Shown in pieces: positions 8,670 to 47,138 of a DNA stretch of 64,000 nt (the stretch's first letter is position 1; each line of letters opens with the position of its first letter). Position numbers and translations under genes: made by a program. Under the pieces are notes generated by a model, which did no database searches, was not told the DNA's origin, and saw only the letters and a list, made by a program, of their open reading frames with translations. Origin of the DNA: Stegostoma tigrinum (Eukaryota); assembly GCF_030684315.1 (NCBI RefSeq), contig NC_081381.1, positions 34,206,784 through 34,270,783 on the forward strand. Reading direction: 5' to 3'.

Positions 8670-8822
8670 TGTGTGTACGCGTATGTGTGTACGTATGTAT
8701 ATTTCTATGTATATTGCGTGTGTATGTGTGTATATTTCTATGTATCTATGTATATTGTGTGCGTGTATGTATGTATATTTCTATGTAGTGTGTGTGTGTG
8801 TTTTTGTGTATGTGTGTGTATA
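8670..8822. repeat. (TG/TA)-rich microsatellite
   Basis: gtgtgtacgcgtatgtgtgtacgtatgtatat... Confidence 0.9.
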
Positions 8823-10280: not shown

Positions 10281-10554
10281 TAGACTTCTTGTTCCTGATT
10301 GTTAGCTGGTGATCAGCTGGAATGTATTTCTGTGTGTGGGTATGGAGCAAAAACAGGATCAGGCTAACTGTGATGCAGCCCCCAGATGACTAGCCTGCTG
10401 ATGTTCACCACCTAGACACACATGCAAAGGTTAGACATTTGGCCAAGATAACCCTGTAAACACCAGCAAGTTTCCAGCTTCTCAAACAGTGAGACCACCC
10501 CGACCTGTCACTGGGTGAATGCCAACAACAATGGAATAAGTCTCTTCGATTCTT

Positions 10555-11445
10555 GTCTGATTCACTCATGGGACGTGGACATCGTTGGTTGGGGCCAGCG
10601 TTTATTATCCATTCCTGGCTGCCCTTGGGAAGGTGGTGGTGAGCTGCATTATTGAACTGCTGCAGTTGGTTGACCCACAATGCCATTCGGGAGAGAATTC
10701 CAGGATTTTGATCCAGCAACACTGAAGGAATAATAATATATTTCCAAGTCAGGACAGCAAGTGGCTTGGAGGGGAATTTGCAGCTGGTGGCCTTACCATG
10801 TATCTGTTGAGATGAAAGTGAATATAGGTACGGAAGGTGCTGTCTAAGGAGCCTTGGTGAGATTCTGCTGTGAATCCTGTAGGTGGTACGCACTGCTGCT
10901 ACTGAGTGCCAGTATAAATCAAGAATTATCAAACTAGTCACAGTAATTCGTAGCAATCAAACAATGATCCATTGTTGCAAGGGAAGGAAATCTGCCATCC
11001 TCACCTGTTCTGTCCTACATGTGACTCCAAATCCACACCGATGTTGCTGGATGTGGTGCCAATCAAGGGAGTGGATGTTTGTTGAAGTAGTGCCAATCAA
11101 ACAGACTGCTTTGTCTTGGATGGTGTCAAGCTCCCTGAGTGTTTTTGAAGCTGCACCCATCCAGGGAAGTGGGGATTTTTCAATCGCACTTCTCAACTTG
11201 AACCTTGTAGATGGTGGACAGGCTTTGGTGGGTAGACAGGTGAGTTTCTCACTGCATGTTTACTGGTCTCTCACCTGCTGTTGCAGCCACCGTGTTTATA
11301 TAGTGAGTCCAGTTCAATTTCTGATCAACAGTAACCCCCCAGAATGTTGATAGTGGGATATTGACTGATGGTAACATCATTGAATGTCAACAGGTGATGG
11401 TCAGTTTGTTTCTTTTTGGAAGTTGTCAATGCCCGGCATTTATGT
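10555..11445 (-). mobile_element. CR1-like LINE (second family) ORF2 3' fragments
   Basis: Minus ORF LPWMGAASKTLRELDTIQDKAVCLIGT...; related copies at 25540-25850 (-), 31130-31410 (+) and 48770-48960 (+). Confidence 0.7.
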
Positions 11446-14400
11446 GGCATGACCATTATGTTCATTGCTCACTTCGGGTCTAAGTGAGAGACGGGAAGTC
11501 CAGCACATGAATCATTCCAACATGGACTAAATCAAGGCAGAGGGGGGTAGGTGGTAGGGTCATCACCTATCCCTGGCCACCCCACCTAATTGAAGACCCT
11601 CACCAAAACCCACCTCAGGAAGAGCGTTTTAGATTCCATCCCTTGCTTACACTTTGGACGTTCTGAGATGGGCTAAAATTTGAGCAATTCCTAAAATGAT
11701 ATTGTACTGATTGCAGTCTCCTTACTGTGAATGAATTAAAGAATCTGATAATAATTATTAATGAAGGAACTTCAGCCTTAGAAGAGAGAGTTGAGGCAAG
11801 GGCTGGTGTTGATCAATGGCAGTATTTCAAACCAGGTTTTTAGTGCATGGGCCACCTAGCTTACACAGTTCCTGAATCCAATGGAAAGGAGGGTCAGGAG
11901 GATCAGGTAAGTATACAAGGGGCTCCCCAGCAATTTGCTCAAAGACTAATTGAAACCAAAGGAGCCATCATAATGCAATTCTGGCTTTTGCTCGCCATCT
12001 ATATTTTTCGAGCAGACTTTCTACGATACTGAGGCCATTTGAAGTTGTCTTGCTGTTGTGCTGGGTGAGACGAGCCAACTCAAGCCAGGCTGGGAGCAAA
12101 TTCCACACTCTGTCTTGTGTGGTTCAGTGACTCACCCTTCTGACATCCTGAGTGGACTTCTGCTCAGCAGTTTGCAAGCGCTCACACACTATATGTAGCG
12201 CCAGGAAAGAGGGAAGGCAATAGAAGAAAATGTGTAGACTGTCATTTAATATTTCCAATAACAATGCACAGTAATGGATGCAAGAGAACATTTATCTTGT
12301 CTAGACAAGGGACGTGAATGAATAATGAGACATTAAGCTGCAACATTTAGTGGAGCAGTTAATAGATTGATGCTTGGATGAGTGAAATGAGAGTCAATTA
12401 ACTGGATGAGAGTCCACAAGGACGTACGCATTCTAACAGGGTAATCAATAAGGAGATAAGTGACTTTATCATTACCATTTTATGTCGCTAAAGGTGAGAG
12501 GTGTCAGTACTGGGGACATGAGGATTTCCAATTTAAGATACACTCATTAAAATAAACACATCAAAACAATAATTTGCAATTATACAGCACAGTTAATGTA
12601 ATAAAGCATTCCAAGGCACAAACAAATTTTCACACTAAGTCATTTAGGAAGATTTTAGGACAGGAGACCAAAAGCTGCATTATAAGATGTTTTTCAGGTA
12701 TCATCTAAGAAAGAGAAAGAGGGAACCTCAGATGTTAGTGCACCAGGAGATGAATGCACAGGCACCACTGGCTGAGCAATTAAAGTCAAGGACACTCAAG
12801 AGGCTATAACTGGATGAGCGTAGGTGCCTCAGAGATGTTGCAGGGCTGGAGGAGGTTACAATGATACTTACAGGCAGGTAGAGCTTTTAGAATGAGAGAC
12901 ACAATTTTAAAATCAGGGGTTTACCAGGCAGGAAGCCTGTAGGTCAGTGAGCACAGAGTGAGGGATCTCTGGGACTTGCTCTAAGGTAGAAGCAGCAGAG
13001 TTCTGTGTGAGCTCATGAAGATGAGTTGGCGATCAGAACCACATTGAAATAATCAAGTGGGATCTTATGGAGGTGACCAAGTCCAGCTGCCAGCTGGGAA
13101 ACTGTTGAGAGACCCTCTTTGCTGCCTTTGGGGAAGGTCTTCCAAAACCACAATCCAAACAGGCAGTGGAGAGGCCACCAGACAGCTGTTCCCCTTGACT
13201 CATGCAGTGGGCGGGGAAGGGGGATTGGTGACCCTCTGCTGAGACCCTCAGGTCAATAAGAAGCCAGAGTTGGGGAGGTGCTGGTGGCTGGTGCTGGAAT
13301 GTCAACCACTAGAGGTCCAGGATTGACAGGCTTTGGGTAATCCATGGCAGGAGGATCATGAGGGTGGTATATTTGGGGAGAGGTCAGGTGCAATTGATTC
13401 TAAACAAAAGGGACATTGTGACCATCGAGTCTAGCTCTAATTTTGGGGGTATGTCCTTTTTGTTTTGGATCAACCTACCCCCTCACATATCCCTGAAAAT
13501 TAGCCTTAGGCTGAATGGGTACAAAGCCATTCTCTTGTATGATGTTTAGAAAATAAGCATCTCTCAGTATTCTCGTAACAGGGTCACATATTATGCCCAC
13601 TGACTGGCATGTTCTAACAGCAGTCACAGAATCGCCATCTAAAGCACCAATGTCTTCAATTTACTAACTCAGCGGATGCCACGGTGATCTCTATCAATTT
13701 GTACTAATCCAGGCATTACTGTCTCACTAAACAATCTAAGCACTTGTGGATTAATGCCTGGCCTAAAGGACGAATGTCCAGTGACCTAAGAGATATACAG
13801 CAAGGCATCCATGAGCTAAATATGGGGACCACCTGACTTCCAAACAATACAGCAAGCAAACCAACTGGGACTTGGTACTTTGTGCCTGTAACTAACTTCA
13901 GGTGTGAGACAGAAGTGGATATAGTGTTGTTTCAGAGGACACAATTTCTAGATTTTTTTCACTCTGAATGAAGCATTGTAATATAGTGGCTTTTAACTGG
14001 CAATGTGGATGTTCAGATTAAACTCTGTAGTAGGAAATAGCAATAGACCATAAGGTTTCTCTAAAGGAGCAGGACAGCTGATGTTTCAGGTTGGGACCCT
14101 ACTCCTGAAATTTCTGAAGAAGGGTCCCAACTCAAAACGTCAGCCTTCCCGCTCCTCTGATGCTGCTTGGCCTGCTGTATTCCTCCAACTCCACACTTTG
14201 TTGCCTCTGACTACAGCATCAGCAGCTCTTGCTATCACAGATTCTGTCTTCCCATTTGGTTATGTATATTGTAGTGGGGGGACCATGCATAGAATTAGGG
14301 TGTAGATAAAACGTGAAAATGTATCAAGAGTTCCAGCAGCATGGATCTAAAGACAGACAGCCTGGCTGTTAAGTGCATATATCAATTAATCATTAAAACC

Positions 14401-14609
14401 ATGTTACCAAATTGACGAATCAAGACAAGTTAACAAAGGAATTCGTTAGCTCAGCTGGGTGGACAGTTTGTCTCTGATGCACAGTGATACCAACAGCATG
14501 GGTTCAGTTCGTGCATTGGCTGAGATTACCATGAAGGACTGTCCCTCTCCCCTCTCCTGAGGTGTGGTAACCCTCAGGTTAAACCACCACCAGTTGTTTC
14601 TCTCTCTAT

Positions 14610-15095
14610 TGTGTTCAGTTCTGGTCACCATAAGCAAGAAGGATGTGGAAGCTACAGAAACAGCTTCCCAGGATGTTGCCTGGTTTTGAGGGTACTATCT
14701 GTGAGGGGAGATTGGACAAACTTGGTTGGTTTTCGCTTGAGAGGCGACCTGACAGAATTTTACAAAATTATGTGAGGGCACGGATAGTCAGGGTCTTTTT
14801 CCCAGGCTTAATTACTAGGGGACATAAGTTTAAGGTAAAAAGGGGTAAGTTTGAGTGAGCTGTGAAAGACAAGATTTTACCCAGAAGATGGTAAGTGCCT
14901 GGAATGTGCTGCAGAGGAGGTGGTGGGAGCACATACACTAGCAACGTTACAAAGACATCTTGACAGGTAAATGAATAGGCAGGGAATACAGGGACATGAA
15001 CGGCACAGAGGCAAAAGGTTTTAGTTTAGACAGGCATCGTGTGTTGGCGCAGTCATGGTGGGCCAAAGGGCCTGTTCCTGTGCTGTGCTGTTCTT
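14610..15095 (+). mobile_element. CR1/HER1 LINE 3' fragment
   Basis: CVQFWSP...QKQLPRMLPGFEG..RLDKLGWFSLERR...TRGHKFKV. Confidence 0.8.
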
Positions 15096-15492
15096 TATTC
15101 TTTTCTTTAGTTACTGAATGAAGATGCTTCTGTCCTGTTGCCAATGTCCAGGTGTTTAGAGTATCTGATGGTGGGAATAATGCACTAGTTTGTTTTTCAT
15201 TGAATGTGATTCTCCTAACTTGATGCTTTGTGTGCTCACATTGGAAAATGTCGGAATTAGACTCAATTAAGAGTCAGTCAACACTTGTTGGCAGATCGGC
15301 TTTCACTAAAACGAAGCCTTTTAACCCCTTCAGACACATATGTTACTGAGAAAGGTTTTCCCAGTACCCTGTCCCACATTTTCCACTTACCTTTCTCATT
15401 TTGTTTTGATATATATATTCTATCAGGAATCAAATCTGCACATATAAATATTTACCTAGAGAATGATTTTTTGGATCAGTTTAAGGCTGATT

Positions 15493-15800
15493 GGGGCAGC
15501 ACAGTAGCTTAATAGTTAGCACTACTGTCTCGCAGCACTAGGGACCCGAGTTCGATTCCACCCTTAGGAGACTGTCTGTGTGAAGTTTGCACTTTCTCCT
15601 TGTACCTGTGTGGGTTTCCTCCGGTGCTCTGGTTTCCTCCCATGGTCCAAAAATATGCAGGTTAGGTGGATTAGCCATGGAAAATTGCCCATAGTGTTGA
15701 GGGATGTGTAGCTTAGGGGTGGGTCTGGTTGGGATGTTCTGAGAGTTGGTGTGGACTTGTTGGGCCGAAAGGCCTGTTTCCACACTGTAGGGACTCTGTG
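15493..15800 (+). mobile_element. HE1/V-SINE SINE, near full length
   Basis: tRNA-like head (ggcagcacagtagct..., gttcgattcc), V-domain gtctgtgtgaagtttgcac...ggtttcctccc, LINE-derived tail. Confidence 0.85.
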
Positions 15801-16362
15801 ATGTTACAGAATCAGCCCTGATATGAGAGTTGGGTACAATCAACACTGCAGAGTCCCCTGATTTGAGTAATATACTCAGTGCTATTTTTACAGCAGTGAG
15901 CAGTGAAAGACCCTAGAAAACTGCAGAGAGGTATCTACATAGACCATAAGCAATGCAGAATGGATACTAAATGGTGGTTTAACTTACTGGAACTCTGAAC
16001 CTTCATGAGGAAACCTGATTATTAATGCACAAAGATGAAAGTGGGTGAACCATCTGTCATTCTATCCTCTCCTGAGATGGTTTCACACTTGCTTGGATAC
16101 TTAAAATTCACAAGTTTTGCATCAGTTCCTAATTTCCTGTTCTTGAGAAGCCTTTAGGGTGGCAATTTTGTGTTTTGTTTCGTTAATGCCAGCACAGCAA
16201 AGTTCTGGTGTGGGAGAGTCAGGAGACAGGGAGAGTCAGGAGACAAGGGGCTCAGATACACTAGCCTGGGCAATTGTCAAGAGACATTGGTTTGAGGGCA
16301 GGTTTGATGAGTTGCTGTTGTTTTGCTTGCTACATAAAAATATCTATGTTCATTTCTTCAAG

Positions 16363-16610
16363 GCTTTGATGCAATCCAATGCTCCTTGCCCAGGGATATG
16401 AGGAAGATTACACTCAACGAGTTATCTGACAACAGCTTCACAGAGTGTGAGTTCTCGCTGACTCTGACAGACTACTTGATTATCTTTTTCTCTGGGGTTT
16501 GTGTCTCCATCACTGCCATTACAACGAGCTTCTTCTTGGCCAATATTGTTCAATGCTTCCAGAGACTGGGATTATTCAAGGAAAGTGATGACGACGAAGA
16601 GAATAAGTAA
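16363..16610 (+). CDS. LRRC38: LRRC38 coding exon 2: end of LRRCT, transmembrane helix, acidic tail
   Basis: Acceptor catttcttcaag| at 16362; phase 1 gives G-FDAIQCSLPRDMRKITLNELSDNSFTECEFSLTLTDYLIIFFSGVCVSITAITTSFFLANIVQCFQRLGLFKESDDDEENK*, matching the recalled human exon 2; total 288 aa. Confidence 0.93.
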
Positions 16611-19215: not shown

Positions 19216-22200
19216 TTGAAGTTAGATCAGTTGTTAACTTGAAGCCTGAGGCTCAAGGTGTTAAGTGCCTCCTCCCATTCCAGTATTTCCATTTCATTAT
19301 GTTATGGCTGACATGTACCTGAACTCCATGTACTCGCCCTGATTCTAGGTAATCTGGGGAAAGACTAGTTGAAGCTAGCTCTTTCACCTCAAGAATTTTA
19401 TACAGTCATGAGGATGTGCCTTGGTACTGTAAGCACGAAACTATAACTGAGATCTTCAGTCTGTTTCAGATGGGCACAATTTCCTGGTGCTTTTCAGGTA
19501 AAGGACTGCAGAATAGCTGTAAAAGAGCACCTTCCTGAATGCTGCCCTCTCTTGCAGGTCAGTTGGGTGATGGGTTGTATCAGTTCAACTCCCACAGACT
19601 CAGTGTTATCAGCAGGAGGCTTGATCAATCTGAGTTGTCAGGCTTCACTTAAATATAAGTGACAAGCTGCCAGCATTAATGTCATTATGTGGAGAAACAA
19701 GAGAAGCTGGTATTGTTCTCCCGACAGCAGAGAAGGTGAGGGGGGACACTCACAGAGGATTTGAAAATCGTGAAGAATGTTGCTCGAGTTTCCGAAAGAT
19801 GAAGGTTCTGCCAAAGGTGACATGAGGGAGTGAACAGCATTTCTTGTTGAAAAAACTTCAAGAAGACCAGCATCCTGTCACCAAGTTATCCTTCATTTAC
19901 ACGTGCAAAGTACATGGACTCTGACCAGCCAGCGCAGAGCCAGTCCCTAGAGTTAGGAGACTCTCTGAATCCCTATTTGGCATTTGTTTTGAATCAATCT
20001 CTTTGGAGATGTTATTACACACCTCTAGAGCAGGTGGGACTTGAATCTGGGCTTCTCAGGCCAGGGCTAGGGACACTGCCACTGCACCACAAGAGGGCCC
20101 GTAATCTCCTGCTTATATCTGTCAATCTGGGCTCCCTAATTGGCCTAGATCATCATCCCCAGTCAAGGATCTCACAGTCAATAGGATCCACCTAGCCCTC
20201 AATCCAGTTAGTATGGTTGTGATCTGGAATGTATTGTCTGATAGGAATAGTGGAAGCAAACTCAACATAAACTTTAAAATGGGAACTGTAAAAATACTAA
20301 AAATGGAAACATTACCAGGACAATGAGGGATGGAACTAATTGCTTGACGCATTCACAGTTACTCATTCACTGATACAAAATGCTGTGCGGCCTTCTTCTG
20401 TGTTTAGTGATTCACTATATTTAATTTGATTCAATATTGTTGGCCTAGTGGTATTTTTACTGGACTATTAATCCAGAGACCTAGGGAATGTTCTGCGGGT
20501 CTGAGTTTGAATCCATCGTGGAATTTGAATTCAACAAAAAGTTAAGAGTGCATTAATTGCTGACCATTAACCTACTAGATTGTCTGAAAAACCCATTTGT
20601 TTCACTAAAGCCCTTAAAGGAAGGAAACTACCATCCTTACCTTGGCTGGCCTACATGTGACTCCAGTTCCATGATAAGGTGGTTGACTCTCATCTGCCCT
20701 CTAGGCAATTAGGGATTAGCAATAAACTTATGGCCCAGATATGATCCCACAAATGAATAAAGAAAAATGTGCTGTTTATATTCAGCTTGCCATTTGTGCA
20801 AGTGATAACATGATGGGCCAGGTGGCCCTTTGCCATTTAAAAGCAAACAGCATCTCTTAAATGGGAAGTGTACTTTTCAAAAGTTGTCAGCGAACAGTGG
20901 GTTAGAATGGCATTTGTAAGGGCAGTCCAATTTTCACACAGAACCATGAAGATTCACATAGAGCAGGTGTTGTACAATTTCTTTCTTTGCAATGGGCAAC
21001 TTAAACCCTGGGAAATCAGTTAACAAACAGCAACAGGGTGACAGGACAAAGCCAGCAGTTCAGTTCTGAGGAGTTTCCTTCAATACAAGATGAAGTGTAA
21101 TTTTCTCAACAAGTTAGACTCCTGGTCAAACCTCTTACTCTCTGTATAGTTCTGTAATGTCAAACCTCAGCCCCAGTGCTTTTGGGCCCTGTCTCCCTCA
21201 CTTCCTCAGCTCCTCCCAGAAATACAATGTGACACAGTGCTACTAGCCCATTGTCAGCTTCCACTGCAGTTGCCCTTGCAATTATTGTGTTTAGCCAATG
21301 TTGATGTCTCTCCTGGTCAGCACTTGCACCATAACAAACTGCTTCAAACATCTTCAAATCCATTCTGCAATCTATTCTAAATCTCCTTGGAAACTGGTCC
21401 TTGCAGGCTGTGATCTCCATCCTCTCTTCTCCCTTGGCCAGACGTGTAATCTGATGAGAGGGGTCTAAAATTGTTTACCCAAAGGCTACAGCCTGATACT
21501 CCACTGGACAGGGCACTTGATAACACGGGGCTAATCTTACAACAGGAATGGATTATTCTACAGTGTGTCTGTACCCTCATGATTCCTTCAGTGGCGCTGA
21601 ATGGCAATAAGTATGTTGCTGGTGGCAGGATTCTTCAGACGTTGATCAGTATATCATGTGAATGAGGTTCGATGACATGGTTATCTTGGCTCAGTGAGTT
21701 AATCATTCCATCATCTTTGAGTCAGAATGTTAAGGGTTTGCGCTGCATTCTAAGCTAATTCGATCAGACAGCCGTTTCACATGCTGTCAGATTTGACCTT
21801 CCTTGTCTTCAGTGGAAAGTATTATCAAAAGAGAGGAAGAACAGTGATCACTCCATCACATCAGTTTCACTGGGTTAAAGTAACCCACCTTAAATTCATA
21901 ATACAGACCAATACTTTATGTCAGCAATGAGGAAGTGATGCATTATCAGGAGTGCTGTTTTTCAGATCAGTCGCTCAGCCGAGATCTCATCTGTCTTCTT
22001 TGATAAATCAAAAACATTCAACGGAGTGTTGCTGACTTCCCCCAGCTATCAATATAGATACATAAATGCCTAACATTCATTCCTCTCATCACTGGTTGAG
22101 GGGTCCTCCTTACAAATTGGTTGCTACATTTTTCAGGTGACAGTTCATTGACATCTGAACACTTTGTCAGGCCAAAGTCACAAAGACACAGGATAAATAC

Positions 22201-23799: not shown

Positions 23800-24450
23800 T
23801 AGTTTAATAGATCTTAATTGCAAGGGGGAATGGACTGAAGTATAAACATTTTGGTGCTATTGTATCGAGCATTGGTGATGCCATACACAGGAAATGAGTG
23901 CAGTTATGGTTGCCTTTTTTTAAGAAGGGAGTTACTCGCATTGGAAACATTTCAGCGAAGTCTTGTAAGTCTAACAGTCTTACTTCGCTGATTCCTGCAT
24001 TGAAGTTGGCTGTCATGTGAGGAAAGATTGAGCAGTCTGAGTCTATCTTCATTAGAGGTTAGAAGAATGAAAGGTGATCTGTTGAACATAAAAGATCCTG
24101 AGAGTCCTTAACAAGATACCTGCTGAGAGGATGTTTACCCACTTGGGGGAATCCAGATCTAGGGGATACTGATTAAAAATAAGGGTTCTCCAATTTGAAA
24201 AGGATGTGAGCAGGAATTTGCTCCCTAGGGAAATTGCTAATGTTTAGAATGCTTTACCCCACATAACAGAGCAGGCTGGGTCATTCAACACTGAATTCGA
24301 TAAATTGTTAGTTGATAAGGAAGTCAAAGGTAATTGGAGGCATGGAGGAAAGTGAAAATTAAGTGAAAGTGAAATTAAGGCCACAAATAGTTCAGCCATG
24401 ATATTATTGAGTGGCAGAGCAGGTTCTTGGGGCTGAATGGTTTATATTTC
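23800..24450 (+). mobile_element. Degraded CR1 LINE 3' fragment
   Basis: gtgcagttatggttgcct...agaagaatgaaaggtgatct...ggctgaatgg tail. Confidence 0.6.
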
Positions 24451-28125: not shown

Positions 28126-29440
28126 ATAAGAAACAAGAGCAGGAGTTGGCCATTGAGCTAATATAGCCTCGCTCCTCCATTCAAGAATATCATGTTGGTC
28201 AATCATAGCCTTTGTTTCTCTGCCAGTCCCGCCCAACCATGAGCTTTGATTGCCCTGTCGATCAAAACTCTATCCAGCTCAGCTTTGCATATATCTAATG
28301 ACCCAGTCTCCACTACTCCCTGGGGAAGAGAATTTCAAAGTCCAAATTCATTTCGAAAGAAGAATTTCCATCTCATCTTCAATGGGACTCCTACTTATTT
28401 AAACCGTTCCCTCAAGTTCTACACTGACACCATGACAGGAAACTTCTTGAGATTCTCTCAGTATTTACCCATCCTGTATGGGTCTGAAAGGATCTGACAG
28501 AGTTAATACTGAGGCGTGCTTCGTGCCTGCTCTATGGGCATGCCAACTCATTCTGCTGAGATCTTATGTGCTGAAATGATCATACCTCACTACCCATCAA
28601 GATCCTTCAGAATCTAATTTGTTGCAATAAGATCACCTTTCATTTTTGTTAATTCCAATGTATATAAGTTTTACTCACAAGACAATCCCTTTATCCCACA
28701 AATCAACCTGTCACGCACTTTTCTAAACTGTTTCTAGCACAAATACATCTCTCTTTAACTAAGGAAACTGAAACTATACTCAGGACTCTGGGTGTGGTTT
28801 CACGAAAGCGCAATGCAGTTCCAGTAAGAATTCCCCCTAATTATATTCTGTCCCCTTCTCGATATGGCCAACATCCCATTTGCTTTCTTAATTACTCATT
28901 GTACATGCATATTAACTTTTTGTAACTCATGAACAGGGACACCTATAAGTTACTCTATGAATTCTGCAAACTTTCCCTTCATTTAAACAAAATTCTGCTT
29001 TTCTACTCTATTCTGCTGCCAACATTTTTACCTTTCGTTGAAAAGCTGCACTCACCTATCACTATCCCACCTATACAATCCTTGAAAAGCTATTTGTAAT
29101 CTCTTCACAACTTGTTTTCCGATTTATCTTTGTATCATTACCAAATTTGGCTACAACAGTCAGTCCCTTTACCCAACTCCTTAATATGTTTCATAAATAA
29201 TTGAGGCCCCAGCCCTGATCCCTGTGACAGCTTTCCCCCAAAAATAACCTCGTTGTCCTGAATCCCCTGATTCCTCCTTGTTATTTAATCCTCTATCACT
29301 CCATTTATTACCTCAACACAGTAACCCTTTTACATAGCACCTTATCAAATGCCTTTTGGAAACCCAAATATATTACACCTACTGACACCTCTTTATCTAC
29401 CCCCAGCTTGCTGTATCCTTGAAGAACTCTAATAAATGTG
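28125..29440 (-). mobile_element. Degraded CR1 LINE fragments (RT region and 3' end)
   Basis: Minus ORF VDKEVSVGVIYLGFQKAFDKV (RT motif) at 29308-29505 and CR1 3' UTR at 28130. Confidence 0.65.
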
Positions 29441-30520: not shown

Positions 30521-30933
30521 TTAGAGTTGGACCTGCAAGAAATCAACTAGCTCATCACAGACCAAGCACATGGATTGAACCAATCCTGGTTTGTACTGCT
30601 CACTGCCACATTGGAAGTTACAGTTAATCCATTGCTTAAACTGGAAGACCATCACAATCTCTTTCCAAAGGGTCTCCCATTTATATTTGATTCCTGGCTG
30701 ACGCACTGTAAATTAATCTGTCACAGATGGAATTGCTTCAGTAAGTGAATCGAATGCACACCTGTTGTGGCAGGTAGCATGAGCTTTCCATTGAGACTGA
30801 CTTTTGACAGCATTGCACAGCCAGACATAATAATATGCTGAAATATTTAGGACTGGTTCATACTGAGCCAGCATTTCACTTCTGAGAGTTGTTTTCCTGA
30901 TCATCAGTCTGTGACTTTCACGAAGGAACACAC
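30521..30933 (-). pseudogene. Putative pseudo-exon, copy 1 of a three-copy coding-like block (unknown family)
   Basis: ORFs 30713-30931 and 30521-30706 share a frame, separated by one TAA where the paralogs have GAA/AAA; the core is homologous to 36401-36953 and 41769-41915. Confidence 0.4.
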
Positions 30934-32395
30934 CTATACATGTACAATGTGTGTTAAGAATTATTGGATAAGAACAGAATCCTGGGAATGGCCATCCTCA
31001 GTAAGAATCATTAATAATGAAGAAGGGGGCATCAAAAGGCAGAGATAAAGGGCAAATTCCTCAAAAAGACATATTGCTAATATTTTTCCTGTGTAGCCCT
31101 GTTAATGTTAAAGATATCCCAACCTTCCAACCCCATGACCTCTATAATCAAAAAGGAAAGGGATTGCAGATGTAGGGGAGCACCACCATGTGCAAGACCC
31201 CCTCCAAGTCACTCACCATCCTCACTTGGAACTACATCACCATTCCTTCACTGTCAAATTCCTGTATTTCCCTTCCTAACAGTACCATGGGTATCCCTAT
31301 ACGTAAAAAACTGCAATGATTCAGGATGGAGGCTCATCTCTATCTTCTAGAGGGTAATTAGAGGTGGGCAATAAATGCTGACCCAGTCAGCAACACCCAC
31401 CTCACATGAATGAGTGGAGCAGTTTGGGTTTTGAGAAGATTTAGGTGGGTGGAAAAAGAGAGATGGGAAGATTTAGCAATGGAGCGTGTGCAATAGGGCC
31501 ATGATGACTGAGAGCTCTGCCAGAGATGGTAGAGTGAAGGCAAGTGAAGAGAGAAAGCTCTATAGCAAAACAAAAACAAAAGGCAACATCCCTGGGCAGA
31601 AACAATTAATGTTTGAGGTCAATGACCTTTCCAGGTTTGGCAAGCGTTTTTTGTGGTGATGTTGCTTTAGAAGCGGATAACCTTTAAACATAAAATGGAG
31701 GACAGTTTTCTCATTGCTGTTTGACACCTATGCAGCCAGATCTTAATGGCTTCAATCTCAGAATGTGGAGGAGACCCCAGCAAGAGCAATGGAGATTGAA
31801 TCAATTAACACCTTCAATAAATAATGGGGGGTGATAGCTATGTTACTGTGCGACAGTTAATCCAGAGACACATGTGATGTTCCAGGCACCCGGTTTGAAC
31901 CCTTCCAAGGTGGAATGTGGAATTAAGAATCTGATGATGGTCACAAAACTATTATTGATTGTCAAGAAAACCCCATCTGAGTTCACTGATGCTCTTCCAG
32001 GACATTGTTACCTGCTCAGGCCTGCATGTGATTCCAGACCCACAGCAATGTGGTTTACCCCTAACAATTAGGAATAGACAACAACTGCTGACCTAGCTAA
32101 CAGTGCTCAGATGCCATGAATTAAAAACAGAAGGATGGTTGTGAGATTGGAGCCAATGATGATCAGATACTCTATACAACAGGATAATTCTTTGGGCACT
32201 CTTTTTGGAAAATGTTGCTTATTGGAGAAAGCTGCCAACATCATCAAAGTCCCCTCCCGTTTTGGTAATGCTGTTCTACAACCTCTCCATCAGGCAGAAG
32301 ATACAGAAGTTTGAACACATGCACCAGCGGGTTCAATAACAGCTTCTTCCCTGCCATTATTAGACTGATGAATGGACTCTCTAACGTCAAATAAT

Positions 32396-32911
32396 AGAAC
32401 ATAGAACATAGAACATAGAACAGTACAGCACAGAACAGGCCCTTCAGCCCACAATGTTGTGCCGACCATTGATCCTCATGTATGAACCCTCAAATTTCTG
32501 TGACCATATGCATGTCCAGCAGTCTCTTAAATGACCCCAATGACCTTGCTTCCACAACTGCTGCTGGCAACGCATTCCACGCTCTCACAACTCTCTGTGT
32601 AAAGAACCCGCCTCTGACATCCCCTCTATACTTTCCTCCAACCAGCTTAAAACTATGACCCCTCGTGCTAGCCATTTCTGCCCTGGGAAATAGTCTCTGG
32701 CTATCAACTCTATCTATGCCTCTCATTATCTTGTATACCTCAATTATGTCCCCTCTCCTCCTCCTTTTCTCCAATGAAAAGAGACCGAGCTCAGTCAACC
32801 TCTCTTCATAAGATAAGCCCTCCAGTCCAGGCAGCATCCTGGTAAACCTCCTCTGAACCCTCTCCAAAGTATCCACATTTTTCCTATAATAGGGCGACCA
32901 GAACTGGACTG
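32396..32911 (-). mobile_element. Young CR1/HER1 LINE 3' fragment
   Basis: Uninterrupted ORF 32490-32876 DTLERVQRRFTRMLPGLEGLSYEERL...; (atagaac)n tail; ATAAT on both flanks. Confidence 0.9.
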
Positions 32912-32956
32912 ATAATGCTGATCTTGTTAATGTTAATCTTGCCTAGCGCACATTTA

Positions 32957-33262
32957 GGGTGGCACAGCGGCTCGCATTGCTGCCTCACAGCACCAGGGAC
33001 CTGGGTTCAATTCCACCATCAGGTGACTGTCTGTGTGGAGTTTGCACGTTCCCCCTGTGACTGCGTGGATTTCCTCAGGGTGCTCTGGTTTCCTCCCACA
33101 GCTCAAAGACGTGCAGGCTAGGTGGTTTGGCCATGCTAAATTGCCTGTAGCATTCAGAGATGTGTAGATTAGGTGGGTTATAGGGAGATAGGTCTGGGTG
33201 GGATGCTCTGAGGGTTGGTGTGGACTTGTTGGGCCAAAGGGCCTGTTTCCATACTGTAGGGA
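32957..33262 (+). mobile_element. HE1/V-SINE SINE
   Basis: gggtggcacagcggctc...gtctgtgtggagtttgcacgttccccc...ccatactgtaggga. Confidence 0.85.
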
Positions 33263-33298
33263 TTGTGTGTGCATAATAATGTATATACATACATATAT

Positions 33299-33300
<2 letters not shown>

Positions 33301-33348
<48 letters not shown>
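33301..33348. repeat. (GT)n microsatellite
   Basis: Perfect GT run. Confidence 0.97.
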
Positions 33349-33357
<9 letters not shown>

Positions 33358-36300
33358 CACATCCTGTGCATTGTAACCTGTATGTCTTACTCTGCCCAAC
33401 CACTTTTTCATGCTATGATCTGTGTATTCTTGCTTACTATGAACTGCTCATAAACAAAACTTTTCGCTGTACTTGGGTACACATGACAATAAATGAAATC
33501 GAGTCAAGCAGGTCCAGTCTGAAAGTGGAATTGAGGATGGGAGTGTGTTCTGCAGTTTCTCACTGGAAATGCCATAAAACACCCCAAAGCTGTTCACAAG
33601 AAAGTTATCAAAAGAGAAATCGGACACCATGTCACATAAGGAAATAGTAGGATAAGTGATGTAAAATTTGTAGGAAGCAGTTGGCTTTAAAGACCATCTC
33701 AAAACAGAGCAGTTGAGAGGCAGGCAGGGAGGCTCTCGGACAGAATGACAGAGCTAACAGGAGGCAGGACCAGGTGAATTTATGAGGTGTGGTTTAGTAG
33801 AGGACAGAGAAGCGGATTAATGCGTGGGCTCCTGATGGCTTAGATTGATCATGATTTCTGTGACAATGGCCATTTCACATGTTCAGACATCCTTAATCTT
33901 GTCTTAATCATGTCATCCTCTGGCTACCTTGCAGGCTCACGGGGCTGTGTGAACCTATTATACCTTCACAGACCTAAAGCTGAGGCTTGAGATTGTGTAG
34001 TTTGATACTACTTCTAATCCTCTCACACGAGATATTGAACACTCTTTAAATGGTGATTGTTTATAGGATGTGAAATTGCTGCTGCAACTATTATCCTATC
34101 GCACCCCAAATTTCCGATCGGAGCTCAACTCTCTGCCAAGTTAAATCGAGCGTTATCTCCAGATCCCTGCATTTCAAACATTTGTCGTCCTTTCAGATAC
34201 AGATCTGATCATCTAATGAATCTGAGGCTAAAAATGTTCACTATTTTCTTGAGGGATTTGTCTCTATGGAAATTGGAAACTTCTCCTAATCCCAGGATTA
34301 CAATGAACAAGCATAGGTACTGCAGTTGAGCCATTAATACTATTACTGGGACTCATCCCTTTGTCCTTTGATTTCCACAGAAGATTATTTCTCAAAAATA
34401 TACTGCCTTCCTTAGTGACGCACAAAGTTTAAAATGTTCTTTCCTCCAATTTCCTCCCTGGGATTTTTTGATGCTTACATTCCAACATCTCGAAACAGAT
34501 TCAATACTAAAGATACCCAGAGCTCTACTACTACCACCAATTAACATAAAATAGCATAAATTATAAATACATTCTATATATAGAGTGAGAGAGAGAGAGA
34601 GAGCACTACAGTGCCGAATGCAGTGTGGCAGTGAGAATGCTAAATTACATAGGAAAGAAATTTAAAAGGATGCAGCTATAATGTGGGCTGGCCTGAAAGG
34701 GTCACAATTGTTCTGTAGGGGCATTGCTGAAAAAAATTACATTTTGTCAAAGTTTTTGCCTTACACTCATCGGGAAAATTCACAAAAATACAAATTTAAT
34801 AGAAAAACTGACACACTGTATGAGAGGAGAATACTGATTGGTTGGCAAGTGGACCGTGATTGGTAGGGGCATTATTGTGGAGAATGCACCAGTTAACAAG
34901 GCCTGACAGTTAACTGCCAGGCATTGTTTAAAATTTAAACTAGGCAGGTTGACTCTAATTCTCAAGGTATTGCCCTGAGAAATTAATTCCAATGTCTCTT
35001 ATCTTGATGAGTGGAAACAGACACAGTGTATGTCCTTCCTGTCCACAAGGAGCTTTGTATTAAAGTATGGGCCTTCCAGTACATCGATGCCCACCTTGTT
35101 GTAAGCCCAAGTGACAATCCTCAGTGTCGCTCTTCACCCAGTTCCAAACAGCTTTGGAGAGGCTCCAAGTCACTGCCACTTGTTAGCAGCAATAGTCGAA
35201 GATAAACAGTTGAAGAAAGTGATGGAAAGGAAGGAAAGCAAACAGTGCAGGAATGAAGGAAAATGACAGAGCAGACCAGAACCCAACGCACAGTGTACAG
35301 AAGTGATGTGGTGCTCCGTAAGATTATTTTTAATTCTCATAACAGGTATGTGGCCATTGCTGGCAATTGTTCTTGAATTCAGTGACTTACTTGACCATTA
35401 CAGAGGGTACTTTAAGAGTTCATCATGTTGCTGTGGATTTGAGGCCATGTGTAGACCAGATAGCCACACAATGGCCCGATTTCCTTCCCCAAACGATATT
35501 CATGACCCGGATAGGTCTTGCAAAAAATGATCATTATCATCACGGTCACCATCACTGGGACTAACTTTTTACTTACAGATTTATTTTCAATGAATTTAAA
35601 ATCCATCAATTGCCCGAGTAGGATTTGAACCTGGGCCTATGGATTACTCAGCCTGTAACTTACTGGGCTTGGCAAAAAACTGTGCTCTATACGAATGCAC
35701 AGCATTATTTGTTGGAGTTTGGTTTGTCCTCCAGTGTCTCGCACAAGCCACCATTTTTCACGTGAGTTCAAAGGACAAGAATTTTCATTTAAAATAAGCC
35801 TATCATGGAAAAGCAAATATCAACAGTACTTCACAGTTTGTGGCTTCTTTGAATACTACATGGATCTCTCTTTGGGGTATTTGTGGACTGTTGTGGATTG
35901 GGAAGATATCCTTTAGCTCTGTGAAACTTAGGTCAAACGCCAGTATTTTCTTCAAAACAGTTTTGGCATATGTTACACCTCTAGGTAAATATATTTTTCT
36001 CTCATACAGACTATTTCATCTCTCTTCTATTGCACATGATTGCTGAATCACTATTACACTAGTGATATGTGGTATATTGCACTAGCCATGACAATTAACC
36101 AATTACTCTTCACTGAGGTGGATAAGAGAAACATGTCAGAGGGAGGGGACTTCGATCAAGTGTCTTGAAGGAAGAGGGTGAATTTAAATTGATGGGAACA
36201 GTGAGGTAAGGGCAGTAAATTTGAGGTGAGTGCTCAGCACAATCTGAAGCTCAGAGTTTGAGCTAAAGTTAATAAGTGGGAGTGGGGGTCAGGCTGGAGT

Positions 36301-36400
36301 GAGAAGCAAAGGCAGCAGTGCAGTGATCAGCGATATAAGAAGTCACCAACACTTTGAGAATCCAAAACCTCCTTGGATTGTGTGATTCTGCCATGTTAGA

Positions 36401-36953
36401 TGGTACAGTCATTAAATCTTTTGTATGCAGGAAAGCCAACCTACTTCCTTCCAGAGGGTCTCCTAATGATATTTGATTTCTGCCTGAACGCAGCCACTTC
36501 ATCAGTGTGAGGTGGGCTTTCTTCAGTCAGGTAGACAAAGAGAAGGCTGGAAGAACACAGCAGGCCAGGCAGCATCTGGAGGAAAGGAGCAGTCAACATT
36601 TTGGATATTACCCTTCTTCAGGGCAGGATGTGAGAGTAGAGGGAGCCAGAGATAAAGTTGGGTGCAGGTGGTGGTGAAGGAAGGAGTGGAGGCAGAATGA
36701 TGGTGATAGGTGGACATTGGTGGTAAGTACGACCTAGTTGATCGATGGGAGGGATGAGTTTGGTTGGTAACTGGAAGGGAGGGTCAGAGGGTAGAGAGGA
36801 AGGCAAGAGGTTGGGCTGGGAGGGCAGGCAGAGAATGGGTGGAAGGTTATTTGAAATTGGAGAACTCAATGCTGAGTCCTCTGGGCTGTGGGGTGCCCAG
36901 ACAGAAAATAAGGTGTTGTTCTTCAAATTCCTTCAGTAAGCTGGCTTTTGTGA
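36401..36953 (-). pseudogene. Copy 2 of the coding-like block, split by a PLE insertion
   Basis: Minus reading LTE/ESPPHTDEVAA..QAEIKYH*ETLWKEVGWLSCIQK; aligns with 41769-41915 once 36528-36937 is removed. Confidence 0.4.
36528..36930 (-). mobile_element. PLE 3' fragment with TSD
   Basis: End of GIY-YIG ORF plus degenerate HHR; CTTCAGT at 36521-36527 and 36931-36937. Confidence 0.8.
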
Positions 36954-39187
36954 CCAGTGTCATGATATTAGGTTTAAAACATTCAACATAGTTTCAGCAA
37001 GAATGTACTTATATATCATTGACTAATTCAAGCACAAAGCGAATCAAGATTTATAATTGACCGTGGACAGTACCTTAATCAGAGACAGCATGGACATGAA
37101 TGACAACCATTCCTACAAACCATCTGTATAAATTCACATCTTACTTGAACAGTGTGTCAGTAACGCTGTAACATTGAGTTGCCGGGGACAGGCTAACATT
37201 GGTGACTCCCCACAAAGTCAGTGACAGGTTTTGCCTCAGTAGTAGGAAATATTTAATTGCTAAGGGTAGGTGTCAGTCACTCTGACAGGCTAACCATTCC
37301 AACTTCTCTTCCTGACATTAATATGCACAATGTACAAGTAACTCGTCCTTAGTCCCCAAACTGGAGCCATTTGCATTATCGAACCAGGGTTCCAGCGTAT
37401 TTGCATAATGCTGCCTGAAGGCACTATCTCCCCGTTGGAGATCTGGGAGCGTGAGCCATTGCATTTACATGCTAACAAAAATCCAAATTGAATCATGAAT
37501 AAAAATGCTCAAAATTTGTCAAATTTATCATTCCGCTTGGAGACATTCCCCAAGTTATGGGACAGATCCATTCAGATTGATACTGTGAATCACAATAATG
37601 GGTAATTAGAACTCCTTGACAGGAGAAATAATACAGTCCAATCTTCCCAAAACAAATCTAGGACTGACCACTGATAACTTTACTGGATGAATGCATTAAT
37701 CTATCAAGTTTTATTTATAATCTTTCAAGTATTAATCTATCATTTAACACAAGCGCCAACGAGTTGACTGTAAAATAGCAGAGAAATCCATTACAAACAC
37801 AAGTAGCATCAACTTTCTTAAAATCACCAACAGTAACTTCCAACATTTGGTGCCTTTACTTCCTTTCACTCTCACATTTCAAAACAGCCCAAAGGCTCTT
37901 TCATAACACAAAGCAGAAAAGGAATATTTTCAATTTTAGAAGCTGAACATAGAGCCTGTATTCATTGCACAGAGGTAAATCAGTGAGGCAACATCACAAA
38001 CTCTGTAAGGAAACTCAACAATGAACCTCTCCGTGTGGGACACAAACAATGAGTTAAACCTTGATACTCTAAAGAAAACCTCCAGGGATTCCACAAAGCA
38101 GACAGAATGTAACCCAGGGACATCATCGAGAAGAAAACTGATTAGATTGCCAAATGAATTGAAATAGACCTCCTCCACCCCACTCTGAGTAGGAGGTTAG
38201 CAATGTCTCTGCCGACAACCGGGAGCTCACTACCAACTTTAATTCAGAAAAATACTTCAACCTTTCATCAGCAAACAGAGAGAGTTACTGGGTTACACAC
38301 TTCACTGACAGCCATGAATTGTTCACGACCATTCAATATGACAAAGTGCTGAGTGGTTGGATCAGAGCTTTATTCAGGACGAAGCTTACCTGAATGAGCC
38401 AGGTGTGTCAACTTAAAGATGCTATCACCTGTTGAAATATGGGAAATGGCAAAAAAAATCACATGAAGAGTATGTGTATACAATACCCTCCTTACAGTCA
38501 GCTCTCCTAATCACCAACATTTAGCTTAATTGATTGTACCAAGGTAAGCTGCTCCATATCCTGCTTTGTTTATCTGTTTACATTGCATTTGTTGGTGACA
38601 GAATTTGAAACAGAGGAGACTCATTGGACTTTGTCATCTTGGATTCCATGCTACAAACTCAGTTGACAGTAAACCTGATGGCCTTATGATTGAGTCACTT
38701 ATCAGTATCTGGCACTAGCAGTGCTGTATCTTCTAAGAGTCTAACATCAATCAAGTAATAGCTTTGTGTAAGTGTTACGGAATAATTGTTTTTATATGCA
38801 TTTTCCAAAGGTCACCTCGTGCCTTGCTTACGAGCAACGATCTCAGAAATGATGCGGACTGGGGAGCACAGAGATTTCCTTGTCCTTGACTCCTGACAGA
38901 ACATAGATTGGTTCTGCAAACAGAAGCCTAATACTGTTTCACAGGTAAAGCAATTAAATGACAGGGCCAATAATTTTGTCATTTTGTTTTGAAAAGTGCT
39001 TACTGTATGGAAGTTGAGATAAACTTGTCTCCAAACAACGCTTCTTCAAATTCCAGCACTGGAGAGATTGAAGAAGTGGAGAAACCGACCCACATTTCAT
39101 CTCAACGATCATCAAAAACTGGTGAGCAATGGAACTAGAGCCACATGAAACGAATCATCCTCAGAGTGACAGAAGGAGAGAAAACGG

Positions 39188-40727
39188 AGATAACAAGATG
39201 TGGAGCTGGATGAACACAACAGGCCAAGCAGCATCCGAGGAGCAGGAAAGCTGATGTTTCGGGCCTGAACCCTTCATCAGAAATGGTGGAGGGGAGGAGG
39301 TTCTGAAATAAATAGGGAGAGAGGGAGAGGCGGAGAGAAGTTGGATAGAGGAGAAGATAGGTGGAGAGGAGACAGATCGAACAAAGAGGCAAGGATGGAG
39401 CCAGTAGAGATGAGTGTAGGTGGGGAGGTAGGGAGGAAATAGGTCAGTCCAGGGAGGAAGGACAGGTCAAGGGGTCGGGATGAGGCTAATAGGTAGGAGA
39501 TGGGGGTGGGGCTTGAGGTGGAAGGGGGGATAGATGTAAGGGAGGACAGGTTAGGGACGTGGGGATGAGCTGGGCTGGTTTTGGGATGCAGTGGGGGGAG
39601 GGGAGATTTTGAAGCTGGTGAAGTCCACATTGATCCCATTGGGCTGCAGGGTTCCCAAGCGGAATATGAGTTGCTGTTCCTGCAACCTTCGGGTGGCATC
39701 ATTGTGGCACTGCAGGAGGCCCATGATGGACATGTCATCTAAGGAATGGGAGGGGGAGTGGAAATGGTTCGCAAGTGGGAGGTGCAGTTGTTTATTGCGA
39801 ACCGAGCGGAGGTGTTCTGCAAAGCCTCCACTTGGTTTCCCCGATGTAGAGGAAGCCACAACGGGTACAGCGGATGCAGTATACCACATTGGCAGATGTG
39901 CAAGTGAACACCTGCTTGGTGTGGAAAGTCATCTTGGGGCCTGAGATGGGGGTGAGGGAGGTGGTGTGGGGGCAAGTCTAGCACGTCCCACGGTTGCAGG
40001 GAAAAGGGCTGGGTGTGGTGGGGTGGGAGGGGAGTGTGGAGCGGACAAGGGAGTCATGGATAGAGTGGTCTCTCCGGAAAGCAGATAAGTGTGGGAGGGA
40101 AAAATGTCTTTGGTGGTGGGGTTGGATTGCAGATGGCAGAAGTGTCGGAGAATGATGCGTTGGATCCAGAGGTTGGTGGGGCGGTACGTGAGGACGAGGG
40201 AGATTCTGTTTTGGTCTTTTTTTATTATTGCGGGGAGGGGTGTGAGGGATGAGTTGCGGGAAATGTGGGAGACATGATCGTCGGCATTCTCGACTACTGA
40301 GTGTGGGAAGTTTCGATCCTTGAAAAACGAGAACATCTGAGATGTACAAGAGTGAAATGCCTCACCCTGAGAGCAGATGTGGCGGAGGCGAAGGAATTGG
40401 AATAGGGGATGGCATTGTTGCAGGAAGGTGGATGGGAGGAGGTGTATTCTCGGCAGCTTTGGGAGTTAGTGGGCTTGAAATGGATATCAGTTTCTAGGTG
40501 GTTGCCGGACATGGAGATAGGTCCAGGAAGGAGAGAGAGGTATTAGAGATGATCCAGGTGAACATAAGGTTGGGGTGGAAGGTGTTGGTGAAGTGCATGA
40601 ACTGTTCAAGCTCCTCTTGGGAGCACGAGGCAGCGGCGATACAGTCATCAATGTAACAGAGGAAGAGGTGGGGTTTAGGGCCAGTGTAGGTACAGAAGAG
40701 GGACTGTTCCACGTAACCTACAAAGAC
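39188..40727 (-). mobile_element. Penelope-like retroelement (RT C-terminal half + GIY-YIG endonuclease), frameshifted
   Basis: LFLCYIDDCIAAASCSQEELEQFMHFTNTFHPNL (RT), SSHPPSCNNAIPYS, FTCTSANVVYCIRC..YIGET..FAEHLRS (GIY-YIG); HHR motif 39253-39280. Confidence 0.9.
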
Positions 40728-41172
40728 ACCCCTACCACATCCCAAAAACCAGCCAAGCTCGTCCCCGCCTCCCTAACCTGTCCTTACACCTACCTCCTCC
40801 TCCCACCTTGGGCCCACCCCCATCTCCTACCTACTAGTCTCATCCTGCCCCCTTGACCTGTCCGTCCTCCCTGGACTGACCTATCTCCTCCCTATCTCCC
40901 CACCTACACTCACCTTTACTGGCTCCATCCCCACCTCTTTGACCTGTCTGTCTCCTCTCCAACTATCTTCTCCTCTATCCATCTTCAATCCGCCTCCCCC
41001 TCTTGCCCTATTTATTTCAGAACTCTCTCCCCCTCCCCCAATCTGAAGATGGGTCTAAGCCCAAAACATCAAGCTTTCCTGCTCCTCTGATGCTGCTTGG
41101 CCTGCTGTGTTCATCCAGCTCCACACCTTGTTATCTCAGATCCTCCAGCATCTGCAGTTCCTACTATCACTG
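40728..41172 (+). mobile_element. Inverted pLTR/3' segment joined to the 5'-truncated PLE
   Basis: Reverse-complement copy of about 39190-39600 fused directly at about 40728. Confidence 0.8.
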
Positions 41173-41768
41173 AAACAGAAATTAGGCCATGTGTTGGCCC
41201 AGGCTGTTCAGAACTCCACAGAGTAAGAAGTCACTCATTATAGTTGTGAATAGCGCACTGCTGGCTGAAAGGCCAGTTTAAGCTGATGTTGGTGATTTAA
41301 TTTTCTGAACACTGGAAAAGCGAAAAGGCTTTGAGCCAATTTGATACATTAAATCAGCATCAGGGTTTAGAGGAGTGCACTGAATAAACATGCCAGAAGT
41401 TCTAGGATTGCACAGTAGGATGGCTTGTCTTTGCATAGAATTATTACTGAAAGTACAGAATTTGTGCTGCAGATACCAGCTCCTCACTACATAAATCTTC
41501 CATTCCCTAACTTCCAGTTTGTTATCATCAGCTTTATTAATGTCCTCTTCACCTTCCGGTTCTTTAATCGGCTCCTGTTGACTAATTCCTCCACCTGTCC
41601 CACACGCACTTTTGCTTTTTTCTAAAGGGTTGACATTTGCTGCTCGCATTTCTGTTTGTATCTGGAACTTGTGACACCAGTGACCATTTTCCCTGTTTAA
41701 TCCTCACCATTATGGCCATTAATGAGCTCAATGCCACCCAGGTCCTAAGTCGGCACAAATGTTTTAAG

Positions 41769-41915
41769 TGATACAGTCATTCAGCTATCTTTTGTAAGCA
41801 GGAAAGTCAAACCATTTCCTTCCAGAGAGTCTCCTCACTCTATTTAATTTCTGCCTGAACGACAGCAATTTTATCAGTGTGAGATGGAGTTACTTCACTA
41901 AGGTGGCTTTTGTGA
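41769..41915 (-). pseudogene. Copy 3 of the coding-like block
   Basis: Minus reading HKSHLSEVTPSHTDKIAVVQAEIK*SEETLWKEMV*LSCLQK; embedded in a purine-rich minus-strand stretch 41280-42450. Confidence 0.4.
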
Positions 41916-46102: not shown

Positions 46103-46272
46103 TCACTTTTCTGGGACGGGCTGGTGGTAGCTACTTATGGGCTGTCGTGGGATAAGGGATTTGGGACCATAGGAGAGAGTGTAGATAGTGTCATACAATG
46201 CTGGCTGGTTCTCTTCTTTTCTCTTCAATCTGGCTAACTTCTCCTCCAAAAGGCCAAAACTTGTGGGAGGAG
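46103..46272 (-). CDS. CFAP107: CFAP107 coding exon 4 (last)
   Basis: Acceptor tttcctttcag|; phase 1 gives A-PPTSFGLLEEKLARLKRKEENQPALYDTIYTLSYGP...PVPEK*, like recalled human APPTNYGLYEQLK...STYTSSYP. Confidence 0.88.
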
Positions 46273-46963
46273 CTGAAAGGAAATAGATACAAAAGACATC
46301 CCTAAGTTCCAGCTTCAGCAGCTTATGTTTACAGATGTCACCAACATGTGGTAAAATATTCCCATTTTGCATAGCAGGAGTGTTTGCCAATTAAAATTGG
46401 TGCCAAGCCACATAATATAGATAGAAGGCCAGCAGCTTGGTCAAAGAGTTAAATTTCAAGGAGCACCTTAATGCAGGGAAGTGAGGTCGAGAAGGGCTGG
46501 CGGCTTGGGAGGGATTGAAGATATTAAGACCTTGGCAACAGCTTTACGGCTGACCATAGGAGAATGGAGGAAACTTAGGATGTGAATGATCACAGATCAG
46601 ATAGTCCCAGGTTTCATCCCTGTTCAGTGCTGAACTAACTAATCTCAGCTGCAATAGCTAAGTGGGACCTTAGCAACACCAACGCAGGAATGGGAAAACT
46701 GCTCTGGATTTGTTGTAGCATTATCTGCTCGAAAACTCAATCATGAATGGCACGTGCAACCGGGCTGGTCTTGAGAACCTCCTATCATCTTCAGCCTTCA
46801 TTACCACCCTGGAGAAATAACCTTAATGGTGAATGACCATTCAAGCAAAGGACAAGAGAGTGGCTAACACTCAGCAAACGCTGCCAATAGTCAGTCTGTT
46901 CACGGGAGGATGAAGATAGAGAAAGGGGAGAGAATTAGTGTAAACATGCTCTGCAATACATAC

Positions 46964-47138
46964 CTATTAGTGGAACGTCTGTACGTTCTGGGACCCAACC
47001 TGGCAGCCTTGCATTCCATTTACGAAGTGGAGGCAAACATGGGTTTGGACGTCGATTAATGTGTTCATCGTAGTGTGTAACATAGTACCAGGAGCGTGGA
47101 ACGTTGTGATGAGGGAATAATACAGTAATAGGTACACC
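46964..47138 (-). CDS. CFAP107: CFAP107 coding exon 3
   Basis: Acceptor gttttttttag|, donor G|gtatg; GVPITVLFPHHNVPRSWYYVTHYDEHINRRPNPCLPPLRKWNARLPGWVPERTDVPLI, like recalled human GLPYKHLITHH...YDDHYNR..NPGLPPLRTWNG..WLPEKSDFPL. Confidence 0.92.

What the first reader, a model, noticed from the sequence alone, without database searches (positions are those of the whole stretch)
30521..41915. Three diverged copies of a coding-like block suggest a decayed tandem gene array between CFAP107 and LRRC38
Seen: a ~130-150-bp block not matching any repeat family I recognise recurs on the minus strand at about 30619-30746, 36401-36953 and 41769-41915, roughly 5.5 kb apart. Minus translations align: LTEAIPSVTD*FTVRQPGIKYKWETLWKEI; LTEESPPHTDEVAA(fs)QAEIKYH*ETLWKEV; LSEVTPSHTDKIAVVQAEIK*SEETLWKEM. 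Core differences are largely third-position synonymous (I atc/att, T acc/act, L ctt/ctc, K aaa/aag, E gag/gaa). The copy-1 stop (TAA) sits where the others have GAA/AAA, and copy 1 otherwise keeps one frame for about 136 codons. Inference: once-coding paralogs of a family I cannot name. Recalled: mammals carry the tandem PRAMEF cluster in this interval, so the site may independently have hosted a shark gene array; no PRAME similarity is visible.
Basis: partly seen in the sequence, partly recalled or inferred. Interest (0 to 1): 0.7.

Follow-up and report, generated by a model that had tools for sequence, protein, structure and literature searches.

The report
Three worn copies of one exon
Three worn copies of one 140-base stretch lie side by side between two genes in a shark genome and were not found elsewhere in it; they are likely leftovers of a gene that was duplicated locally and later died, but no related gene could be named.

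Summary
The block is real: three same-strand copies at 30611-30746, 36396-36531 (5' stub 36928-36953 cut off by a retroelement fragment) and 41764-41915, 68-80% alike, with unalignable flanks. It is not a common repeat: no further copy in the genome by DNA, protein and pattern searches that return thousands of candidates for neighbouring old repeats, although copies under about 70% identity would be missed. The coding claim is overstated: 15 of 33 variable columns are third positions, pN/pS about 0.5 (P 0.02-0.06), every copy has stops, and copy 1's long frame leaves the shared frame after about 30 codons. The ends of homology fall on plus-strand splice-like signals (post hoc P 0.0015), so even the strand is open. 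No homologue in Pfam, Rfam, PDB or protein collections; LRRC14/LRRC14B (PRAME's relatives) and CERT1 were tested and do not match. Best reading (0.45): one exon of an old, locally triplicated, now dead gene. Rivals: constrained non-coding element (0.3), locally copied transposon fragment (0.2). Other sharks and RNA could not be examined. Modest interest.

The parts
30611..30746 (-). copy 1 of the block (the most diverged; about 0.50 substitutions per site from the others)
36533..36927 (.). fragment of an old Penelope-like (RT plus GIY-YIG) retroelement subfamily inserted at the edge of copy 2, with a 7-10 bp target duplication; 12.5% diverged from its subfamily
   Evidence: family type from related long copies
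36928..36953 (-). 5' stub of copy 2, matching 41890-41915 of copy 3 (23 of 26 bases)
41764..41915 (-). copy 3 of the block
30624..30740 (+). copy 1 read as a plus-strand exon: AG before, GTAAGT after, 117 nt, one frame open (copies 2 and 3: 36409-36525 and 41777-41897)
   Evidence: inferred, no transcript seen
30524..30997 (-). 158-codon frame with one stop through copy 1; only about 30 codons are shared in frame with the other copies
46106..47138 (-). last two exons of CFAP107 (right neighbour)
   Evidence: PF22595; splice sites

Best explanation
The three blocks are diverged copies of one 140-150-base stretch, found only at this place, and are likely the last recognisable exon of a gene that was likely triplicated in tandem long ago and is likely dead now. 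Shown: local paralogy, same orientation, sharp ends, unrelated flanks, stops or a frameshift in each copy. Inferred: unequal crossing-over made three gene units; selection or exon-limited gene conversion kept this exon alike while introns and spacers were replaced by transposon debris; copies 2 and 3 stayed alike until about the time a retroelement fragment landed at the edge of copy 2; decay followed.
For: Exon-sized block with abrupt ends: 1 of 24 flank bins reached p<0.05. Three copies within 11.4 kb on one strand, none in 177 other loci of 1.18 Mb including 200 kb on each side, none genome-wide by DNA, protein (14, 36, 124, 125) or pattern (34, 35, 133, checked in 37, 135, 136), while two neighbouring old repeats gave 2974 and 4743 candidates. 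Third-position excess: pN/pS 0.46-0.56 in the two frames that share third positions, P 0.02-0.06. Donor-like and acceptor-like signals at both ends on one strand, P 0.0015 in 20000 column permutations, post hoc. A stop at the same aligned codon in all three copies. No conserved RNA fold.
Against: No parent gene or homologue: Pfam in 18 frames, 5.8 billion proteins, 1.84 billion representatives (copy 1 only), PDB, own genome. No second exon shared between units. The two supporting signals point to different readings: the plus frame with low pN/pS has a stop shared by all three copies mid-block, and the plus frame that is nearly open has pN/pS about 1.1. The outer acceptors are pyrimidine-poor (0.45-0.55 against 0.63-0.77 for two CFAP107 acceptors). 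Copies 2 and 3 differ by only 0.20 +- 0.04, while the younger insert has drifted 0.125 +- 0.02 on its own, so this reading needs conversion or late constraint.
Confidence: 0.45

Rival explanations
1. The copies are a duplicated non-coding element still under constraint: an enhancer cluster for LRRC38 or CFAP107, or an exon of a non-coding transcript.
For: Copies 2 and 3 are no more different (0.20 +- 0.04 in total; 9 and 9 lineage-specific changes) than neutral drift since the insertion alone would make them (about 0.25), yet their flanks are unalignable. The insert sits at the very edge and leaves 136 bases whole. Stops in all frames need no explanation. Human LRRC38 has tissue-specific enhancer chromatin (PMC8594701, passages), though described within and near the gene.
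Against: The dating is within error (about 12 changes on copy 2's lineage against about 16 expected). The third-position excess is not expected. No structure signal: z -0.6 to +0.85, positive or negligible covariation term; no Rfam match at the block among 5 weak matches. Three to four small indels in 140 columns.
Confidence: 0.3
2. The block is a short piece of an ancient, low-copy transposable element (for example from a LINE coding region) that was inserted or copied three times locally.
For: Short block in unrelated flanks is what insertions look like; pieces of a transposon ORF can carry a third-position excess; the interval is at least 36% recognisable repeats and holds 60-70% identical CR1-type fragments. 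The DNA search missed copy 1 when given copy 3, so copies under about 70% identity escape it.
Against: No extra copy by three conserved patterns: 1, 3 and 10 off-locus matches against controls of 1, 2 and 3, with 8 of the 10 being one near-identical repeat on small contigs, none extending beyond the seed. No target duplications or terminal repeats seen at the block ends. Three of three copies clustered on one strand.
Confidence: 0.2

Closest known systems
Decayed tandem gene clusters (duplicated pseudogenes, pseudo-exons)
   Same: Several same-strand, exon-sized paralogous blocks a few kb apart, each with its own stops or frameshift, introns and spacers unalignable.
   Different: Only one shared block per unit, no intact member and no nameable parent.
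Eutherian PRAMEF cluster (PRAME/LRRC14 family)
   Same: Position next to CFAP107 in the DHRS3-AADACL-CFAP107-LRRC38-PDPN neighbourhood (the mammalian order is recalled).
   Different: No similarity to LRRC14/LRRC14B profiles; the genome shows only LRRC14 and LRRC14B; PRAME is reported as eutherian only (PMC3037382, passages); here LRRC38 converges on CFAP107, whereas I recall a tandem orientation in human.
Duplicated conserved non-coding elements (clustered enhancers)
   Same: 100-200-bp blocks kept while flanks turn over; no open frame needed.
   Different: Weak third-position excess and splice-like ends; conservation across species untested.

Membership tests
Tandem pseudogene array | Paralogous copies clustered at one locus in one orientation | tested here: met
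Tandem pseudogene array | Coding signature in the shared sequence | tested here: inconclusive
   pN/pS about 0.5, P 0.02-0.06; 15 of 33 variable columns at third positions
Tandem pseudogene array | More than one exon, or flanks, shared between units | tested here: not met
   134 + 31 repeat-masked tiles gave only the block and one pair of CR1-type fragments
Tandem pseudogene array | Intact parent or orthologue | tested here: not met
   none in own genome or protein collections; genomes of other sharks could not be searched
PRAME/LRRC14 family | Sequence match to the family profile | tested here: not met
   profile of 25 LRRC14/14B proteins: best block tile -0.1 bits; profile-profile probability 0.15%; block profile against 111 proteins best 0.9 bits
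PRAME/LRRC14 family | Match to PRAME proteins themselves | not testable with these tools
   none among the 110 hits or in PDB; the Pfam family carried by LRRC14 hits is not in the local library
Dispersed transposable element | Many copies genome-wide | tested here: not met
   against controls 90, 93; blind below about 70% identity
Dispersed transposable element | Match to Dfam/Repbase | not testable with these tools
   no such library
snoRNA or other structured RNA | Conserved fold, boxes, Rfam match | tested here: not met
START domain (CERT1 type) | Sequence match to START exons | tested here: not met
   20 START loci: best 2.2 bits; CERT1 exon ranks 57, 175, 1780 of 3045 frames, DNA p 0.12-0.61
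Leucine-rich repeat | Full LRR unit | tested here: inconclusive
   PDB 4u08 at E 0.001 as a sum of 8 weak stretches, best 7.9 bits; other frames E 1.3 and none; no Pfam LRR match

The most novel reading that the evidence does not exclude
The blocks are relics of a leucine-rich-repeat gene array (PRAME-like or another LRR type) at the site where eutherians later carry PRAMEF, so this locus bred tandem LRR genes in jawed vertebrates hundreds of millions of years before mammals; or one copy (copy 1, 117 nt, open, with a perfect donor) is still a live exon of an unannotated shark gene family.
Probability: 0.07. Interest if true: 0.7.

Novelty: new member of a known kind. Interest (0 to 1): 0.25.

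Why it matters
As a dead exon triplet of unknown parentage it is a small footnote: a marker of a lost, unannotated cartilaginous-fish gene that could be recovered from other shark genomes. It would matter more if an intact version turned up in another shark, or if it proved LRR/PRAME-like, since PRAME is reported as eutherian only (PMC3037382). If instead it is a constrained enhancer triplet, it would be a candidate regulator of LRRC38 or CFAP107.

Tried and rejected
Structured RNA: no fold signal, no Rfam match. PRAME/LRRC14 lead, from recalled motif likeness: shark LRRC14 was found by synteny, 110 relatives fetched, 25 of them aligned; no match. The W-P-F word upstream in copy 1's frame gave 18 off-locus hits at E 0.1-7; the 14 inspected were chance or antisense LINE sequence. 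CERT1 START lead, recalled: CERT1 found next to HMGCR; no significant match; the exon before the intron was not scored by script. Podoplanin: its transmembrane exon lies on the other side of LRRC38 (L030). L005 (E 0.004) and L239 (E 1.1) do not match the DNA profile. A second apparent duplication (23.9-24.3 and 28.2-28.8 kb) is old CR1-type debris. Viral contigs: 15 seed matches, none extending; phage records none. Protein Atlas: no usable hit for two open frames of copy 1. Sequencing runs: 4 of 10 listed runs hold copy 2, one study; no RNA holder listed; no read-level data were obtained, so the stops are unchecked in other individuals and expression is open. Earlier scan notes: nothing on this place. 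Literature: 0 papers for LRRC38/C1orf158/synteny, 2 for shark+LRRC38, 4 for PRAME+shark, further listings; none on this block by title or abstract start; listings only, supplements not seen.
Full report
Observation. Identities are 67.8% over 146 bases (copies 1-2), 68.8% over 109 (1-3) and 80.1% over 141 (2-3), far above 200 shuffles. A profile of the three finds only these in the window; the next of 49 listed matches scores 8.9 bits. Copy 2 is split: a 395-base fragment (36533-36927) with a 7-10 base target duplication separates a 26-base stub from the rest. The fragment resembles the end of long RT plus GIY-YIG elements and has thousands of relatives.

Setting. The genome is a shark's: its LRRC14 last exon is 83-100% identical to chondrichthyan proteins. 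CFAP107's last exons lie at 46106-47138 on minus. The LRR gene called LRRC38 has exons at 5722-6546 and 16338-16610 on plus, so the two genes converge across a 29.5-kb gap. Beyond the window lie a short-chain dehydrogenase exon (DHRS3 by recall) and a VPS13 exon on the right, and a 7TM receptor, a podoplanin transmembrane exon (E 2e-6, just under the cut-off) and a PRDM2-like exon (recalled, no Pfam match) on the left. The neighbourhood is the mammalian one, but I recall LRRC38 in tandem with CFAP107 in human, so the gap may equal the PRAMEF interval only on its CFAP107 side.

Extent. Homology stops sharply: 1 of 24 flank bins reached p<0.05. After masking, 134 tiles of 21.5-46.1 kb and 31 tiles of 16.6-21.6 kb gave only the block and one inverted pair of old CR1-type fragments. 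With known repeats subtracted the spacers are about 3.6 and 2.8 kb, so there is no 5.5-kb period.

Copy number. DNA searches gave 2 candidates for copy 3 and 1 for copy 1, against 2974 and 4743 for two neighbouring old repeats. Copy 3 did not find copy 1, so this search is blind below about 70% identity. Protein searches found the copies and otherwise E 0.004 or worse. Three conserved patterns gave 1, 3 and 10 off-locus matches (controls 1, 2, 3); 8 of the 10 are one near-identical repeat on small contigs, and none extends beyond the seed. A profile scan of 177 loci (1.18 Mb, including 200 kb on each side) found no copy. A large family is excluded at this divergence; a small, very old one is not.

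Coding signal. Pooled pN/pS is 0.50 (0.56 over the whole block); column shuffles give P 0.022-0.024 for that frame and 0.059 or 0.018 for the best of six, the best being the plus frame that shares third positions. The copies carry 3, 3 and 4 stops in about 45 codons, near random expectation. All three have a stop at one aligned codon near the end, which could be the true stop. Copy 1's one-stop frame of 158 codons is rare (9 of 1576), but only about 30 codons are shared in frame.

Boundaries. On plus, each copy starts after TACAG and ends before GTAAGT (copy 1), GTAAGC (copy 2 before the insertion) or CTAAGG (copy 3), giving 117, 117 and 121 bases; copy 1 has an open, phase-symmetric frame. 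Permuting columns within conservation classes gives both signals in 0.15% and the donor alone in 1.3% of 20000 trials. I noticed this before testing it, the outer acceptors are pyrimidine-poor, and the open plus frame has pN/pS about 1.1, so it is a lead on strand, not proof.

Age. The insert differs from the majority of 29 relatives at 44 of 381 sites (0.125 +- 0.019). Copies 2 and 3 differ at 24 of 135 (0.20 +- 0.04; 9 and 9 lineage-specific), copy 1 by 0.50 +- 0.08. The duplication is older than the insert and old enough to erase flanks, yet the blocks differ no more than neutral drift since the insert predicts. So they were constrained or converted at least until about then (inference). 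This fits a still-constrained element as well as a late-dying exon.

Identity. Nothing in Pfam over 18 frames (best E 0.085) or 276 open frames, Rfam, 5.8 billion proteins, 1.84 billion representatives (copy 1, minus frame), or the Atlas. Plus-strand frames were not searched in the large protein collections. The only hit under E 0.001 is a bacterial LRR protein in PDB, summed over 8 weak stretches, best 7.9 bits (other frames). Recalled likenesses to PRAME/LRRC14 and CERT1 were tested with sequences from this genome and failed. The genome shows only LRRC14 and LRRC14B. PMC3037382 (passages) found no PRAME in opossum, platypus, chicken, frog or zebrafish; PMC8594701 (passages) calls LRRC14B a PRAME paralogue and describes muscle enhancers at human LRRC38. 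Folding gives z -0.6 to +0.85 with no covariation support.

Verdict. Real, locus-specific triplication; most likely one surviving exon of a dead tandem gene set (0.45), else a constrained non-coding element (0.3) or a locally copied transposon piece (0.2). Orthologues in other sharks and stranded RNA would decide. Interest 0.25.

Noticed in passing
window 21163-21474 (-): A unique 104-codon open frame with an acceptor-like AG near 21451 resembles the second half of a PH domain: best PDB match CERT1 PH, E 0.99; scores 58 against the shark CERT1 PH exon, first of 3045 frames but not an independent test; no Pfam match, no paralogue in the genome.
   Followed up: partly
L022:1001-2125 (+), about 8-9 kb before the window start: Intact 375-codon 7TM receptor frame (PF00001), CXCR3-like by recall, between podoplanin and LRRC38; I recall no such gene there in mammals.
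   Followed up: partly
L030:2056-2220 (-): Podoplanin-like transmembrane and tail exon (PF05808, E 2e-6, 28.5 bits against a cut-off of 30).
   Followed up: partly
window 5722-16610 (+) and 46106-47138 (-): LRRC38 converges on CFAP107 here; recalled as tandem in human, which would mean a local inversion in one lineage.
   Followed up: no
G000:C2:18.9 Mb (L124, L125) and G000:C5:11.1 Mb (L079, L081): LRRC14B is not beside CCDC127/SDHA as recalled for human.
   Followed up: no
window 23850-24350 and 28230-28830: Two old CR1-type LINE 3' fragments in opposite orientation that look like an inverted duplication.
   Followed up: yes
L265-L272 (small contigs C309-C834): A near-identical AT-rich repeat unit on at least 7 small contigs; no Rfam match.
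   Followed up: partly
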